Virus record (IMG/VR): IMGVR_UViG_2516653058_000003
Coordinates: 1-64,000 of that record
Length of the DNA stretch: 64,000 bases
From: a virus
Taxonomy: Duplodnaviria; Caudoviricetes
Direction: 5' to 3' (one strand)
Shown here: in pieces, positions 32,259 to 38,935 of the stretch
How positions within the stretch are numbered: the first letter of the stretch is position 1
How the letters are laid out: each line of letters opens with the position of its first letter
Made by a program: the position numbers and the translations under genes
Notes under the pieces: model-generated
Database searches by the model: none
What the model saw: the letters and a program-made list of their open reading frames with translations, nothing else
Told to the model about the DNA's origin: nothing

Positions 32259-33860
32259 ATGTCAAAAACTTTTAAAGGAAGAGCACCTTCCATCCTGCTG
32301 ACGGCAAACGGACATACCCGTAACATTATGGAGTGGGCCGCCATTGTCTCCCCGGAAGACCCCCAACGGGCTGAATTTGTGATCCGTGACCGGTACCAAA
32401 AAAGACGACGCCGGAACAGCCCGGTCACGGATGCCCAGGTCATTTATGGCCTGAGCTACCAAAGCACGGAAGAGATGCCGATGGAGATGGGTCTGCCGCG
32501 CTTGTGCAGGATGTGGGTGCTGGAGGCGATGGACTTGGTGATGCCGCAGGTCGAGGAACACCTGTCCATGCGGATGGCGGCATACCTGTCACAAAAGCAC
32601 GGGACCCCGCCGCCTGGGGAATTCATCACGACCGATAAGTCTCTGCCTGCCAAGCGCCCAAAACCCAAACTAAACCCAGTCCCAGGCGTAAACCCGTCCA
32701 CGCCCGCCCTGAAGGTTGTCATGGATTGGCTAAAGGCGAACAACCTCGACGACCCTTTAATCGGGGACAACTACCGGTCCGCCCAGCTGCTGATGATGTG
32801 CCAGGCCGACGAGCCGACGCCGGAGCTGTTGGCGTGGCATTTCGCCCTGCTGGATGAGACAGGCCTGTCCGCCCCCGTACCGGAAATCAAAAAGGAATTG
32901 CCTTACAAAACTGCAACCAAACACCAGGAGGAGTGGTGGGAACCTTACATCAAAACCCGCTACATCATTGACGCGTTCAAGGACGGCAGGGAGCCAGACC
33001 CGTTCACGCCAACGGACAACGCCGACACCCTCACCGAAGAGGAGGAAATGGAACTTGAAGCCCCTGCCTACACCCAAGAGTTCTGCCGGTCGTCGAAGGC
33101 ACATGTCAATGAGGTGGTAGACCGCCGCTTCCTGAAGTCCCAGAACGAATACCTGTGCCTGATGCATAACAAACAGGCCATAGACCGTCTTGACGGGCCG
33201 TCAGGCACCCAGGACGGGTTTGTCAAGTTCCTGAACTTTGCGTTTTTCGACATAGGGTTCCGGTGCGTGTTGCAGATCAGCGATTTCAGGACGTTGAACC
33301 GGGCGCAGCACGTCTATTTTCTGTCCGCCCTGTGCCGTAAGTTCAAGGCGTCGTTTGTGGGCAGGAACACCGACCTCTGCGACAGCCTGTTGGAAAAGCT
33401 GTCCGAGTGGGGGCTTAACCCCCTGCCGCTGTCGCAGCTGCATAGGCACCCGTTGCTGTGCCACTTGCATTCACGGGGCAACGAACAAGTGGCCGCTTCG
33501 CTTAAGCCATTGCTGGATTATGCGGACAGGCAGGGGCTGGATTACAACACCTACCAATATTGGGCGACTTTGGATCACTACGAACACGAAACCCTGATCG
33601 ACTTGGACCCTCTGTTCATCCCTGCAGAAATCAGGGAATCCGACAAGTACCAGGGGATATTGGACTCCTTGGTTGCCGCCACGAACTATGGCCGGAACAT
33701 GGCCATGTGGCCGGAAGGGGTGGTGGCACCGAGGCCGGACATGGTGCCGTGCGACCTGTACGACGACCCCATAAAAGGCTACGATTACACCGTTTTCGAC
33801 GGGGCGCCGTTGCTGGTTGACGGGTCCCATACGTTTGTTGTCTTGGAGGGGGTGGGGTGA
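32259..33860 (+). CDS. 533-aa hypothetical protein with N-terminal DNA-binding-like domain
   Basis: N-terminus LTANGHTRNIMEWA..IRDRYQK resembles the NGxxxTLxEW HTH repeat; the rest is unrecognised. Confidence 0.7.
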   Translation: MSKTFKGRAPSILLTANGHTRNIMEWAAIVSPEDPQRAEFVIRDRYQKRRRRNSPVTDAQVIYGLSYQSTEEMPMEMGLPRLCRMWVLEAMDLVMPQVEEHLSMRMAAYLSQKHGTPPPGEFITTDKSLPAKRPKPKLNPVPGVNPSTPALKVVMDWLKANNLDDPLIGDNYRSAQLLMMCQADEPTPELLAWHFALLDETGLSAPVPEIKKELPYKTATKHQEEWWEPYIKTRYIIDAFKDGREPDPFTPTDNADTLTEEEEMELEAPAYTQEFCRSSKAHVNEVVDRRFLKSQNEYLCLMHNKQAIDRLDGPSGTQDGFVKFLNFAFFDIGFRCVLQISDFRTLNRAQHVYFLSALCRKFKASFVGRNTDLCDSLLEKLSEWGLNPLPLSQLHRHPLLCHLHSRGNEQVAASLKPLLDYADRQGLDYNTYQYWATLDHYEHETLIDLDPLFIPAEIRESDKYQGILDSLVAATNYGRNMAMWPEGVVAPRPDMVPCDLYDDPIKGYDYTVFDGAPLLVDGSHTFVVLEGVG

Positions 33861-33865
33861 AGCGC

Positions 33866-34012
33866 TATATTTAGAAATGGCCGCGTCGTCTAGTGGTTAG
33901 GGCATGGGTACTTGGAAACGTCGGTTCGAATCCGACTTAATCGTCTAGCGGCCTAGGACACCAGACCGCCGAAACGCAGGTTCGAACCCTGTCGCGGCCA
34001 TTTTTAAATATA
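33866..34012 (+). ncRNA. tRNA-like RNA with two tandem D-arm/T-arm modules and no anticodon arm
   Basis: Acceptor-like stem GGCCGCG/CGCGGCC extended to 20 bp; two TTCGAA T-loops (33920-33936, 33976-33992) and two GTCTAG.GG..AGG.C D-arms. Confidence 0.8.
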
Positions 34013-34077
34013 ACCGGAGATGTAGGCCTGTTGCGGATGGATTCTGGGTGCATTCGATTTTTTACCAAGATCCAACC

Positions 34078-34269
34078 TCAATGCCTTTTAAGCAGGCCCT
34101 TGCCCCCCTCCAACACCACCAGCAAATTTCTCCTCCCTTCTGCAATTTCCGAGGATTTATCCAAATCCTCGAAATATTTTTTATCCCCGGACACCCACGC
34201 CTCCACCGCTTTCGCTAGCGCGGCCTCCACGTTAGTGGGCACAACAGTTGGTTTTTTGATGTGTACCAT
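34078..34269 (-). CDS. 63-aa hypothetical protein
   Basis: C-terminal part of the track's 274-aa ORF; ATG 34269 follows an AT-rich promoter-like gap. Confidence 0.45.
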   Translation of the reverse strand: MVHIKKPTVVPTNVEAALAKAVEAWVSGDKKYFEDLDKSSEIAEGRRNLLVVLEGGKGLLKRH

Positions 34270-34546
34270 AATAAATACTACATTTTGTAATAAATAACAA
34301 AAAGTATATAACGACGATGGTGTATTTTCAATATAAGTCAAATGGGTAATATTTACCCCGCCACGGTTTTCGTAGTTGTTGCGTGGTGGTTCACATATTT
34401 TGGTTTGGGCTTGTGGTTGTTGGGTTCCAATTGCCGCAGGCCCGAACAAACCCAGAACCTTCCCGTTGCGAGAGGTTTCTGGCTTTGTTCCCAGCAAAGC
34501 AGGCCAAGGCAGCACACTTGGAAATTTTAAAATAAGGATAGTGGCC

Positions 34547-36336: not shown

Positions 36337-36753
36337 ATGTTCAAAAACTTACTCAAAAATGGCAAGAAATTACAAAACCGACAGCTCTTTGAGGCCGTCG
36401 TTGCAGGGGTGTTGCTGGTTGCCGCCGCAGGCGGTGACATCGGCAAGGCCGAGCGCGAAAAGATCGGCAAATTGTTGAAAAACAACCCGTCCCTCGACGT
36501 GTTCAAAAGCGAAATCACATCGGTGCAGACTGCTTATGAAAAGCAGTTGGATGCAGACTTTGACTTAGGTAAGTCCCGTTTGGTCAAAGAAATCCGCCAG
36601 GTTTCCGATACTCCAGACCACTGCACTGAAGTGTTCCTGAATGTGTTGTCCGTAGCAAAGGCCGATGGCGAGGTTGATGCCAAAGAGCTGGCCGTGATCA
36701 AAGAACTGGCCGACATCCTTGGCCAATCCTTAGAAGAATACGGTTTGGCCTGA
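36337..36753 (+). CDS. terB: TerB-family protein
   Basis: LVAAAGGDIGKAEREKI and LSVAKADGEVDAKELAVIKELADILG TerB signatures. Confidence 0.85.
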   Translation: MFKNLLKNGKKLQNRQLFEAVVAGVLLVAAAGGDIGKAEREKIGKLLKNNPSLDVFKSEITSVQTAYEKQLDADFDLGKSRLVKEIRQVSDTPDHCTEVFLNVLSVAKADGEVDAKELAVIKELADILGQSLEEYGLA

Positions 36754-38095: not shown

Positions 38096-38935
38096 ATGAA
38101 AAGATACGCACGCTCAATGAAGGTGACCAGCTCACTCCAATCAATACACCCCATCACCGACGACCCGATCATGAAATACGCCCCCAGTATCTTGGCGGCT
38201 GATAAGCATGAGTCCCGTTCTAAGGGGTACACCTATGTGCCTACCATCCAGGTCATAGACAGGTTACGTAAAGAAGGCTTCCAGCCGTTCTATGTGGCGC
38301 AGTCCGGGACACGGGATGAAACCCGTACCGATTTTACCCGCCACATCGTCCGCTTACGCCATGCCGACCATATCGGCAAGACAGACGTCAATGAGGTTGT
38401 CCTCTTAAACTCCCATGACGGTACAAGCTCCTACCAAATGATGGCCGGCGTCCTGAATTTCGTCTGCGCCAACGGCCTGTTTATCGGGGATCTTGTGTCC
38501 AATATCCGGGTGCCACACCGTGGCAATATTGTGGAAGGCGTCATTGAAGGTTCCTACACCATTTTGCAGGAGTTCGAGAAGGTTGACCAAAGCAAGGATG
38601 AGATGAAGTCAATAACCTTGTCGGATTACGAGCGCCGGGCATTTGCCAACAGCGCCATGGCCCTCCGCTATGACCAAGGGGACGAACCGTTCGAACCCAG
38701 TCTCCTGCTATCAACCCGCCGGATGGCGCAACGCGAACCATCCCTGTGGAACACCTTTAACGTGGTGCAGGAAAGCCTGATCCGTGGCGGGGTGCCAGCC
38801 AAAACCAAGGCCGGTAAGCGCACGACCACCCGTGCCATGAACAACATCCCGGAAGCCACAAAGCTGAACCAGGCCTTGTGGATGTTGGCGGAAAGCATGA
38901 CTGGCCTGAAACACAAGCAACTGGAGGCGGCATGA
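38096..38935 (+). CDS. DUF932 family protein
   Basis: HESRSKGYTYVPTIQVIDRLRKEGF, LLNSHDGTSSYQMMAG..FVCANGL and SLWNTFNVVQE signatures. Confidence 0.9.
   Translation: MKRYARSMKVTSSLQSIHPITDDPIMKYAPSILAADKHESRSKGYTYVPTIQVIDRLRKEGFQPFYVAQSGTRDETRTDFTRHIVRLRHADHIGKTDVNEVVLLNSHDGTSSYQMMAGVLNFVCANGLFIGDLVSNIRVPHRGNIVEGVIEGSYTILQEFEKVDQSKDEMKSITLSDYERRAFANSAMALRYDQGDEPFEPSLLLSTRRMAQREPSLWNTFNVVQESLIRGGVPAKTKAGKRTTTRAMNNIPEATKLNQALWMLAESMTGLKHKQLEAA

What the first reader, a model, noticed from the sequence alone, without database searches (positions are those of the whole stretch)
33866..34012. Double-elbow tRNA mimic: two D-arm/T-arm modules, no anticodon, one 20-bp closing stem
Seen in sequence: TATATTTAGAAATGGCCGCG (33866-33885) pairs with CGCGGCCATTTTTAAATATA (33993-34012), with one G-U. 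Inside are module 1 (TCGTCTAGTGGTTAGGGCA, 15 nt, GTCGG-TTCGAAT-CCGAC) and module 2 (TCGTCTAGCGGCCTAGGACA, 15 nt, GCAGG-TTCGAAC-CCTGT). Each D arm resembles tRNA-Glu/Asp. Both linkers are 15 nt ending GAAAC, too short for an anticodon arm plus variable loop (about 22 nt). The same truncation in two diverged modules with intact T-stem pairing argues for selection rather than decay. Established: Y RNAs and tmRNA use D/T elbows without decoding. Inference: a decoy or scaffold for elbow-binding proteins (tRNA-targeting defence nucleases, RNase P, modification enzymes, ribosome).
Basis: partly seen in the sequence, partly recalled or inferred. Interest (0 to 1): 0.85.

Follow-up and report, generated by a model that had tools for sequence, protein, structure and literature searches.

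The report
Nested double tRNA-Glu mimic RNA
A prophage carries a 147-base RNA gene that folds as one anticodon-less tRNA-Glu look-alike nested inside another.

Summary
Window 33866-34012 holds a 20-bp closing stem, two tRNA-Glu-type D arms, two T arms and no anticodon arm.

The two 15-nt linkers pair with each other, so the RNA is an outer cloverleaf (closing stem, D1, a short anticodon-like stem, AAAC, T2). That stem runs into an inner core with no acceptor stem (AAAC, T1, UUAA, D2).

Pattern scans found about 13 relatives in viral and metagenome contigs. They include a Mu-like phage, a 353-kb phage genome, a 170-kb viral contig and two circularly permuted versions. Evidence for the fold:
- Compensatory changes occur in every helix.
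- A19/U56 tertiary covariation links D2 to T1.
- Across helix positions there are 41 G.U pairs and no A.C pair, so the + strand RNA is under selection.

It is not a decoding tRNA, it does not score as YrlA, and no Ro60 gene was found. The upstream 533-aa gene does not travel with it.

Function is inferred only: a non-decoding mimic of the tRNA-Glu body, possibly a counter-defence decoy.

Notes from this scan report other anticodon-less phage tRNA mimics on other DNA, including one "double-elbow" of tRNA-Leu type. I did not test those.

The parts
33866..33878 (+). 5' strand of the AU-rich extension of the closing stem (UAUAUUUAGAAAU)
   Evidence: Pairs with 34000-34012. The extension is kept by compensatory changes in L078, L079, L082 and L088: 11 of 21 closing-stem pairs change on both sides.
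33879..33885 (+). Acceptor-like 5' strand (GGCCGCG), positions 1-7 of the outer cloverleaf
   Evidence: Rfam tRNA alignment, model positions 1-7. The inner 8 bp of the closing stem are 97% paired in 9 members against 51% in shuffles.
33886..33904 (+). U8 C9, D1 arm (GUC UAGUGGUUAG GGC) and A26 of the outer core
   Evidence: Seen in the sequence. Invariant or near-invariant columns in A1-A3. RNAalifold predicts the D stem including U13.G22.
33905..33907 (+). H_out 5' strand (UGG): top of the anticodon-like stem of the outer core
   Evidence: Pairs with 33969-33971 (CCG). Rfam aligns these as tRNA pairs 27-29/41-43. The helix covaries: UGAU:AUCA, CAAC:GUUG, UUGC:GCAA.
33908..33911 (+). Internal-loop strand (GUAC) between H_out and H_in
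   Evidence: Unpaired in my model and in RNAalifold. ACU is invariant in the five short-spacer members.
33912..33915 (+). H_in 5' strand (UUGG): stem that carries the inner core
   Evidence: Pairs with 33961-33964 (CCAG). The helix covaries: UGGG:CCCG, GUGG:CCAC, GUUG:CAGC.
33916..33936 (+). AAAC (variable-loop equivalent) plus T1 arm (GUCGG UUCGAAU CCGAC) of the inner core
   Evidence: The T1 stem is 100% paired with three pair types at two positions. AAAC is invariant in 17 of 18 modules.
33937..33940 (+). UUAA spacer where the inner core's acceptor stem would be
   Evidence: Replaced by a capped hairpin of 4-7 bp in L076, L080, L086, L090 and L106.
33941..33960 (+). U8 C9, D2 arm (GUC UAGCGGCCUAG GAC) and A26 of the inner core
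   Evidence: 100% identical over 22-23 nt to host tRNA-Glu(UUC). D2 A19 covaries with T1 U56 in L079, L082 and L088.
33961..33971 (+). H_in 3' strand (CCAG), internal loop (ACCG), H_out 3' strand (CCG)
33972..33992 (+). AAAC plus T2 arm (GCAGG UUCGAAC CCUGU) of the outer core
   Evidence: Rfam tRNA alignment. The T2 stem is 100% paired with compensatory changes.
33993..34012 (+). Acceptor-like 3' strand (CGCGGCC) and 3' strand of the AU-rich extension, with no unpaired discriminator or CCA
32259..33860 (+). Context only: upstream 533-aa orphan gene, ending 5 nt before the element. Not a conserved partner.
   Evidence: No Pfam or PHROG family. It has 11 distant homologs, and the three homologs whose contigs were fetched (L112-L115) carry no hit to the RNA model. 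No RNA homolog has this protein beside it.
34150..34171 (+). Context only: terminator-like hairpin plus U run, 138 nt downstream on the same strand
   Evidence: Consensus scan. Function not shown.

Best explanation
The stretch encodes a structured non-coding RNA carried by a prophage. Shown by comparison: it folds as two tRNA-Glu-type cores joined through their anticodon-stem positions. The outer core has the usual strand order: closing/acceptor stem, D1 arm, a 3-bp anticodon-like stem, AAAC, T2 arm. That short stem continues through a 4x4 internal loop into a 4-bp stem carrying a second, circularly permuted core (AAAC, T1 arm, UUAA in place of an acceptor stem, D2 arm). D1 forms an elbow with T2, and D2 with T1. 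There is no anticodon loop, no unpaired discriminator and no CCA, so it cannot decode and is unlikely to be charged. Inferred: it acts by mimicry of the tRNA body. It presents two tRNA-Glu-like bodies at a fixed spacing to a host or phage factor that docks on the tRNA core or elbow, and either titrates or recruits it. It moves as a stand-alone cassette among unrelated phages and sometimes sits in accessory or counter-defence gene neighbourhoods. The most likely use is therefore as an uncleavable decoy for a tRNA-directed host defence. The target is unknown.
For: Fold: my nested structure on the MAFFT alignment A3 gives 96.8% of cells paired, 17 pairs changed on both sides, 0 of 500 shuffles as good, and 39-46% for slid controls. 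RNAalifold predicts the same fold independently. In nine members H_out is 83% paired and H_in 89%, with 0 of 1000 shuffles reaching either, and self-hairpin alternatives fail. Tertiary support: A19(D2)-U56(T1) in L079, L082 and L088. In L109 the D2 loop and T1 loop are both degenerate while D1 and T2 stay canonical. Two circularly permuted members (L107, L111) keep H_out (CCGC:GCGG, CCUU:AAGG) and H_in (CCGG:CCGG, GGGG:CCCC) with the acceptor position capped by a hairpin, so a free acceptor end is dispensable. RNA and strand: 41 G.U against 0 A.C in 378 helix cells, and the model scores 159.8 bits on + against 21.6 on -. tRNA-Glu character: 3-bp D stem, U13.G22, 4-nt AAAC with no position 47, G15/C48. 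This compares with host tRNA-Glu and with the E. coli tRNA-Glu 'augmented D helix', which I cite from my own knowledge. Mobility: the closest homolog sits between baseplate genes of a Mu-like phage. Others lie in a 353-kb phage genome and in 170-kb and 64-kb viral contigs. No neighbouring protein is shared and no tRNA genes are nearby. Context leads: L107 lies before PTH2 and NAMPT/PRPP-synthetase-like genes. The window has KilA-N, TerB and DUF932 nearby.
Against: No expression data: no RNA run was listed, so the ends and abundance are unknown. No binding partner is identified and none is encoded consistently next to the RNA. Only about 13 members were found, several of them closely related (L079, L082, L088), so some covariation counts reflect few events. 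The decoy idea rests on analogy. A tRNA-Glu-directed defence in this host is not shown; the host's AAA_13 protein is only a candidate of unknown activity. The 20-bp closing duplex could equally serve RNA processing.
Confidence: 0.55

Rival explanations
1. It is an mRNA 3'-end element: a very stable structure, with a long duplex for RNase III or an RNase P/Z-like cut. It would punctuate or stabilise the transcript of the upstream gene, and the tRNA shape would serve only as a processing signal.
For: It starts 5 nt after the stop of the 533-aa gene and lies 138 nt before a terminator-like hairpin. In L078 it sits between two genes of one operon. The closing stems are 19-34 bp in seven members. 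U runs follow the permuted forms.
Against: A plain hairpin would do the job. Here two complete sets of tRNA-Glu tertiary nucleotides are invariant, and the 19-56 pair covaries. The two members with only 8-bp closing stems (L086, and L090 from a 353-kb phage genome) and the two permuted members have no long duplex.
Confidence: 0.15
2. It is a Y RNA of the YrlA type: the tRNA-like effector module of a Ro60/Rsr-like ribonucleoprotein whose protein partner has diverged beyond recognition.
For: YrlA has the same strand order as the inner core: variable region, T arm, acceptor-like stem-loop and D arm on a stem made by the RNA ends (PMC4201824). A chain of such units in L062 gives a weak YrlA hit of 25 bits. 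Notes from this scan report phage mimics travelling with Ro60-like genes (untested).
Against: No YrlA match at E<=10 on the element or in the genome above 33 bits, and those genome hits are tandem tRNAs. No TROVE domain in the host genome or in five phage records, three of them complete. The adjacent 533-aa protein is not conserved with the RNA, and its models are too poor to compare.
Confidence: 0.1
3. It is a precursor that is cut and rejoined to give one or two separate small RNAs, as with permuted or split tRNA genes, rather than working as the intact double fold.
For: Circularly permuted members exist. Permuted tRNA genes are known in a red alga (own knowledge).
Against: No anticodon can be assembled from the linkers: closing the outer unit gives a 3-bp stem with an 8-nt loop GUACACCG (sequence). 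No RNA ligase or splicing endonuclease was seen among the window's genes that were scanned.
Confidence: 0.05
4. It is a decayed pair of tandem tRNA-Glu genes or a recombination scar, with no function.
For: The D arm of module 2 is identical to host tRNA-Glu, and the host carries tandem tRNA-Glu genes. A few truncated tRNA-Glu pseudogenes turned up in MAGs (L073, L074, L075).
Against: The same architecture recurs in about 13 phage or metagenome contigs with compensatory changes in every helix and 0 A.C mismatches. Linker lengths are held at 15-17 nt. It is a single copy inside a prophage.
Confidence: 0.03
5. It is a DNA-level palindrome (cruciform, origin or recombination site), and the tRNA likeness is incidental.
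For: A 20-bp inverted repeat. An AT-rich candidate origin lies 1.7 kb upstream according to other first-stage notes (untested).
Against: G.U pairs are tolerated 41 times and A.C never. That asymmetry is meaningless for double-stranded DNA and marks an RNA of the + strand. The internal helices and the tertiary pair also covary.
Confidence: 0.02

Closest known systems
YrlA (Y RNA-like A, Rfam RF02553; Chen et al. 2014, PMC4201824)
   Same: A non-decoding tRNA mimic of bacteria and phages. Its tRNA-like domain is circularly permuted (variable region, T arm, acceptor-like stem-loop, D arm) and sits on a stem formed by distal strands. That is exactly the order of the inner core here and of the units in L062, L107 and L111. 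The tRNA tertiary nucleotides are conserved.
   Different: No match to the YrlA model. No Ro60/TROVE gene in the host or in five phage records. Here the permuted core is nested inside a second, normally ordered core. The body is specifically tRNA-Glu-like. In this window the inner acceptor stem-loop is reduced to UUAA.
Bacterial tRNA-Glu(UUC) (Rfam RF00005)
   Same: D arm, U8/C9, A26, a 4-nt variable loop lacking position 47, and a T arm. The D arm of module 2 and the T2 loop are identical to the host's tRNA-Glu. The element scores above the Rfam tRNA gathering threshold.
   Different: No anticodon arm, and ARAGORN finds nothing. The acceptor stems differ freely between members (GGCCGCG, GGCUGUG, CAUUGCA, AAACCAU). 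There is no unpaired discriminator or CCA. There are two cores in one molecule.
Single-core anticodon-less tRNA-Glu-like genes in phage tRNA arrays (found here: L059, L060, L061, L083, L085, L087, L110)
   Same: The same D arm, AAAC and T arm, with linkers of 15-17 nt.
   Different: Each has its own 7-8-bp acceptor stem. Its linker folds on itself as a 3-5-bp mini-hairpin with a loop of about 5 nt. Four of them (L059, L060, L061, L108) lie among ordinary tRNA genes; the others were not scanned for tRNAs. The double elements swap the two linker halves between modules and have no tRNA genes nearby.
tmRNA tRNA-like domain
   Same: A tRNA-derived acceptor/T-arm module without an anticodon, working outside normal decoding (own knowledge; discussed in PMC4201824).
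   Different: tmRNA is charged and has a tag reading frame and pseudoknots. Here there is no chargeable end and no frame, and ARAGORN finds no tmRNA. The host has its own tmRNA elsewhere.

Membership tests
Canonical tRNA (RF00005) | Score above the Rfam gathering threshold with a full-length model match | tested here: met
   36.5 bits against 29, model positions 1-71, but only by skipping 61 nt in place of 11 model positions.
Canonical tRNA (RF00005) | Anticodon arm: 5-bp stem, 7-nt loop with U33 and an anticodon | tested here: not met
   ARAGORN reports 0 genes. The 11-nt linkers hold no such hairpin, and they pair with each other instead.
Canonical tRNA (RF00005) | Free acceptor end (unpaired discriminator, CCA encoded or added) | tested here: not met
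   The acceptor stem continues without a break into 13 more base pairs. Permuted members cap this position with a hairpin. CCA addition in vivo is not testable here.
YrlA / bacterial Y RNA (RF02553) | Match to the YrlA covariance model (gathering 69 bits) | tested here: not met
   No match at E<=10 in 33600-34300. The best genome hits, at 33 bits or less, are tandem tRNA genes.
YrlA / bacterial Y RNA (RF02553) | Encoded near, and bound by, a Ro60/Rsr (TROVE) protein | tested here: not met
   No TROVE match above cut-off in the host genome or in five phage records that carry related RNAs. Binding is not testable here. A Ro60-like fold beyond the reach of Pfam is not excluded.
YrlA / bacterial Y RNA (RF02553) | Permuted tRNA-like domain (V, T arm, acceptor-like stem-loop, D arm) on a stem | tested here: met
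   The inner core has the order AAAC-T1-spacer-D2 on H_in. The stem-loop is present in L076, L080, L086, L090 and L106 and is reduced to UUAA in the window. The YrlA layout is taken from PMC4201824.
tmRNA | tRNA-Ala-like end plus a tag peptide frame | tested here: not met
   ARAGORN finds no tmRNA in the window. The Rfam search left out one lower-scoring overlapping match of the tRNA clan.
Nested double tRNA-Glu-like RNA (family proposed here) | Two D arms and two T arms, linkers pairing crosswise (H_out, H_in), one closing helix or a capped equivalent | tested here: met
   The window scores 159.8 bits on model R1 (it is a training member). Independent members score 58-90 bits: L076, L080, L086, L090, L106, L109, L111.

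The most novel reading that the evidence does not exclude
Phages build RNAs from tRNA-Glu bodies fused anticodon stem to anticodon stem, in normal, permuted or chained order. These bivalent, uncleavable decoys would hold two tRNA elbows at a set distance and so trap or cross-link a multimeric tRNA-directed immune nuclease, for example one of the PrrC/RloC ATPase family. That would be an RNA-only class of anti-defence element independent of Ro60.
Probability: 0.2. Interest if true: 0.85.

Novelty: new variant of a known kind. Interest (0 to 1): 0.68.

Why it matters
tRNA-shaped RNAs that do not decode are known (tmRNA, YrlA), but a molecule built of two complete tRNA cores nested through their anticodon stems is in no Rfam family I could match and in no paper my searches found. 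The fold survives circular permutation and transfer between unrelated phages, which indicates that the paired cores themselves are the working part. If the target is a tRNA-directed defence or a tRNA-Glu-specific enzyme, this would add an RNA-decoy mechanism to phage-host conflict. It would also give structural biologists a compact natural scaffold with two elbows.

Tried and rejected
- **Phage and plasmid records:** BLAST of the element against phage and plasmid records gave no match.
- **Relatives of the host:** the only matches were the 22-23 nt shared with their tRNA-Glu genes. Model R1 over 150 genomes of the host's family found only tandem tRNA-Glu genes besides the element itself.
- **Related prophages:** none in 400 genomes of the order using the terminase. 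The terminase is at most 31% identical to known phages. The 533-aa protein found no relative in IMG/VR.
- **First junction pattern:** only unrelated hits.
- **533-aa protein as partner:** rejected. Its homologs' contigs lack the RNA, and the loci that hold the RNA lack the protein. Its predicted structures were too poor to search (ESM Atlas pLDDT 0.37; AlphaFold pLDDT 47), so no fold search was run.
- **Expression:** no RNA holder was listed for 33500-34400.
- **Alignments:** the CM alignment of long-spacer members misplaced the spacer inside D2. Pair counts for all nine members were therefore made on my own segment alignment.
- **Single-sequence fold:** the MFE fold pairs T1 with T2 through the GGUUCGAACC palindrome. 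I reject this because comparison supports separate T arms.
- **Promoter:** a sigma-70-like promoter read by eye (TTGGAG-17-TATATT) was not listed by the consensus scan, and I do not claim it.
- **Literature:** three searches found no description of this architecture.

Full report
**Setting.** The window is part of a 4.69-Mb bacterial chromosome with 50.6% GC, 46 matches to the Rfam tRNA model (45 of them elsewhere in the genome) and its own tmRNA. It is almost entirely a large, novel prophage.
- Structural genes run on the minus strand up to about 27 kb.
- An early and replication arm runs on the plus strand, with KilA-N, TerB, DUF932, NAD-dependent ligase, methyltransferase, primase, helicase and a family A polymerase.
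- The terminase is at most 31% identical to any deposited phage. No related prophage was found in 400 genomes of the host's order.
- The element lies in the early arm. It starts 5 nt after the stop of an orphan 533-aa gene and ends 138 nt before a terminator-like hairpin.

**Observation.**
- The closing stem is 20 bp with one G.U.
- There are two D arms of tRNA-Glu type, two T arms, and two 15-nt linkers ending GAAAC.
- ARAGORN calls nothing.
- Rfam's tRNA model scores 36.5 bits over 33879-34000 by treating 61 nt as an insertion where the anticodon loop should be. No other family matches at E<=10.
- The 22-23 nt around the second D arm are identical to the host's two tandem tRNA-Glu(UUC) genes, and the T2 loop UUCGAAC matches them too.

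**Relatives.** BLAST found nothing, so I scanned the public collections with degenerate patterns for a tRNA-Glu D arm followed too closely by a T arm.
- *Single-core RNAs.* These have their own acceptor stem, and the linker folds into a 3-5-bp mini-hairpin. Examples are L059, L060, L061, L083, L085, L087 and L110, and several lie inside phage tRNA arrays.
- *Double elements like the window's.* These are L078 (identical to L089), L079, L082, L088, L076 (a Methylococcaceae MAG), L080, L086, L090 (a 353-kb phage genome), L106 and L109.
- *Model scores.* A covariance model built from five of them scores the nine then known at 64-178 bits. It scores L106, L109 and L111 at 58-66 bits, against 43 bits or less for single-core RNAs and real tRNAs.

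**Fold.** In the double elements the linkers do not fold on themselves. The first 3-4 nt of linker 1 pair with the last 3-4 nt of linker 2 (helix H_out). The last 3-4 nt of linker 1 pair with the first 3-4 nt of linker 2 (helix H_in).

| Helix | Window | Other members |
|---|---|---|
| H_out | UGG:CCG | UGAU:AUCA, CAAC:GUUG, UUGC:GCAA |
| H_in | UUGG:CCAG | UGGG:CCCG, GUGG:CCAC, GUUG:CAGC |

- Across nine members H_out is 83% paired and H_in 89%. No shuffle out of 1000 reaches either value. The self-hairpin alternatives score 67% and 39%, no better than shuffles.
- On the MAFFT alignment of the five short-spacer members, the full nested structure has 96.8% of cells paired and 17 pairs with changes on both sides. 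Slid controls give 39-46%.
- RNAalifold predicts the same structure without my input.

The molecule is therefore an outer cloverleaf (closing stem, D1, H_out, AAAC, T2). Its anticodon stem runs through an internal loop into H_in. H_in carries an inner core with the strand order AAAC, T1, spacer, D2.

**Three further observations fix this topology.**
1. In L079, L082 and L088 the D2 loop has A19 and the T1 loop has U56, while D1 keeps G19 and T2 keeps C56. The elbow pair 19-56 is therefore Watson-Crick only if D2 partners T1 and D1 partners T2.
2. In L109 the D2 loop and the T1 loop have both lost their canonical sequence, while D1 and T2 are intact.
3. L107 and L111 are circular permutations. 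The RNA begins in linker 1, the acceptor position is closed by a hairpin, and a U run follows the H_out strand. Both H_out and H_in are still perfect 4-bp helices with new sequences.

L062 extends the principle to a chain of at least three permuted cores. In L076, L080, L086, L090 and L106 the 4-nt UUAA spacer of the window is replaced by a capped acceptor-like hairpin.

**RNA, not DNA.** Over 378 helix cells there are 331 Watson-Crick pairs, 41 G.U pairs and no A.C pair. The model scores 159.8 bits on the plus strand against 21.6 on the minus strand. The selected object is an RNA read from the plus strand.

**What it is not.**
- *Not a decoding tRNA.* It has no anticodon arm and no free acceptor end. 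The acceptor sequence is unconstrained between members.
- *Not a YrlA by the tests available.* There is no model match. There is no TROVE gene in the host or in five related phage records, three of them complete genomes. YrlA is nevertheless the closest known design. Chen et al. describe its tRNA-like domain as T arm, acceptor-like stem-loop and D arm on a stem, with a variable-region equivalent (PMC4201824). That is the order of the inner core here.
- *Not tied to the 533-aa gene.* The three homologs of that gene whose contigs were fetched have no such RNA beside them. The RNA's relatives have quite different neighbours: Mu-like baseplate genes in L078, PTH2 and NAD-salvage genes in L107, and a weak DUF932 in L111.
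- *Not part of a tRNA array.* None of the twelve double loci has a tRNA gene nearby.

**Function (inference).** The invariant nucleotides are those that build the tRNA-Glu core: the 3-bp D stem, U13.G22, G15/C48, the 4-nt AAAC lacking position 47, G18 G19 and the T loop. The acceptor end and the position of the RNA termini are free to vary. This argues that the two cores or elbows are what is recognised.

I therefore favour a non-decoding mimic of the tRNA-Glu body that titrates or recruits a tRNA-binding factor. Its cassette-like spread among phages and its accessory-gene neighbourhoods fit a counter-defence decoy.

As leads only:
- RloC, an anticodon nuclease whose damage phage repair enzymes cannot undo, favoured tRNA-Glu when overexpressed in E. 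coli (PMC2610378).
- The host encodes a 785-aa protein of the same AAA_13 ATPase family, which matches the PADLOC candidate PDC-S06. Its activity is unknown.

Rival readings are ranked in the Rival explanations section: an mRNA processing or stability element, a Y RNA with an unrecognised partner, a processed precursor, a pseudogene, and a DNA palindrome.

**Earlier notes of this scan.** Many anticodon-less phage tRNA mimics have been noted on other DNA. They include YrlA-like permuted forms said to travel with Ro60-like genes and one "double-elbow" of tRNA-Leu type. I did not test those. They prompted the extra look at the 533-aa protein's structure, which was uninformative.

**Verdict.** This is a real, selected, structured phage RNA with a nested double tRNA-Glu-like fold and about 13 relatives.

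Noticed in passing
L062:2380-2900 (minus strand), 210-kb IMG/VR phage genome: A chain of at least three circularly permuted, anticodon-less tRNA-Glu-like cores follows a tRNA-Thr gene. Each is T arm, capped acceptor hairpin, D arm. The strand before each AAAC/T arm pairs with the strand after the next D arm. It gives a weak YrlA hit of 25 bits.
   Followed up: partly
L059 (=L081, L084):973-1064; L060:789-874; L061:1314-1374; L083:831-901; L085:272-336; L087:253-331; L110:5251-5340: Single-core tRNA-Glu-like genes with their own acceptor stem and a mini anticodon hairpin (3-5 bp, loop of about 5 nt). Several lie inside phage tRNA arrays that show no ordinary tRNA-Glu in the stretch fetched.
   Followed up: partly
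L077:100-187; L075:5530-5626; L073:5825-5870 and L074:5300-5343: Odd tRNA-Glu genes. L077 reads as tRNA-Glu(UUC) with a 4-bp anticodon stem. L075 (Bdellovibrionales MAG) has a 3-nt anticodon loop and an encoded CCA. The two Chloroflexia MAGs carry a tRNA-Glu with the variable loop and half the T stem deleted.
   Followed up: no
L116:1468-3825 (= G000:C1:2055999-2058356): The host encodes a 785-aa AAA_13 (PrrC/RloC-type ATPase family) protein. It matches the PADLOC candidate defence model PDC-S06 over its full length (974 bits) and lies beside a DUF2130 gene and an IS200-like transposase. Its activity is unknown.
   Followed up: partly
window 32259-33860: An orphan 533-aa early protein with no Pfam or PHROG family and only 11 distant homologs among 1.8 billion representatives. 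AlphaFold is confident only for residues 11-60, a small N-terminal beta-beta-helix unit. It is not linked to the RNA in other contigs.
   Followed up: partly
L107:8939-11795: In a 170-kb viral contig the permuted double element sits directly upstream of a PTH2 peptidyl-tRNA hydrolase, a phosphoribosyltransferase/PRPP-synthetase-like gene and a NAMPT-family gene. This looks like a translation-rescue and NAD-salvage accessory cluster.
   Followed up: no
window 33866-33878 and 34000-34012; L078, L079, L082, L088 flanks: The AU-rich outer part of the closing stem keeps a similar sequence (UAUAUUUAAA / UUUAAAUAUA) across five members from different gene contexts, yet also shows compensatory changes. 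I could not tell whether this reflects common descent, an RNase III site or an insertion preference.
   Followed up: partly
window 36337-36753 and 38096-38935: TerB-domain and DUF932 genes lie 2-5 kb downstream of the element in the early arm. A weak DUF932 match also sits next to the permuted element in L111.
   Followed up: no
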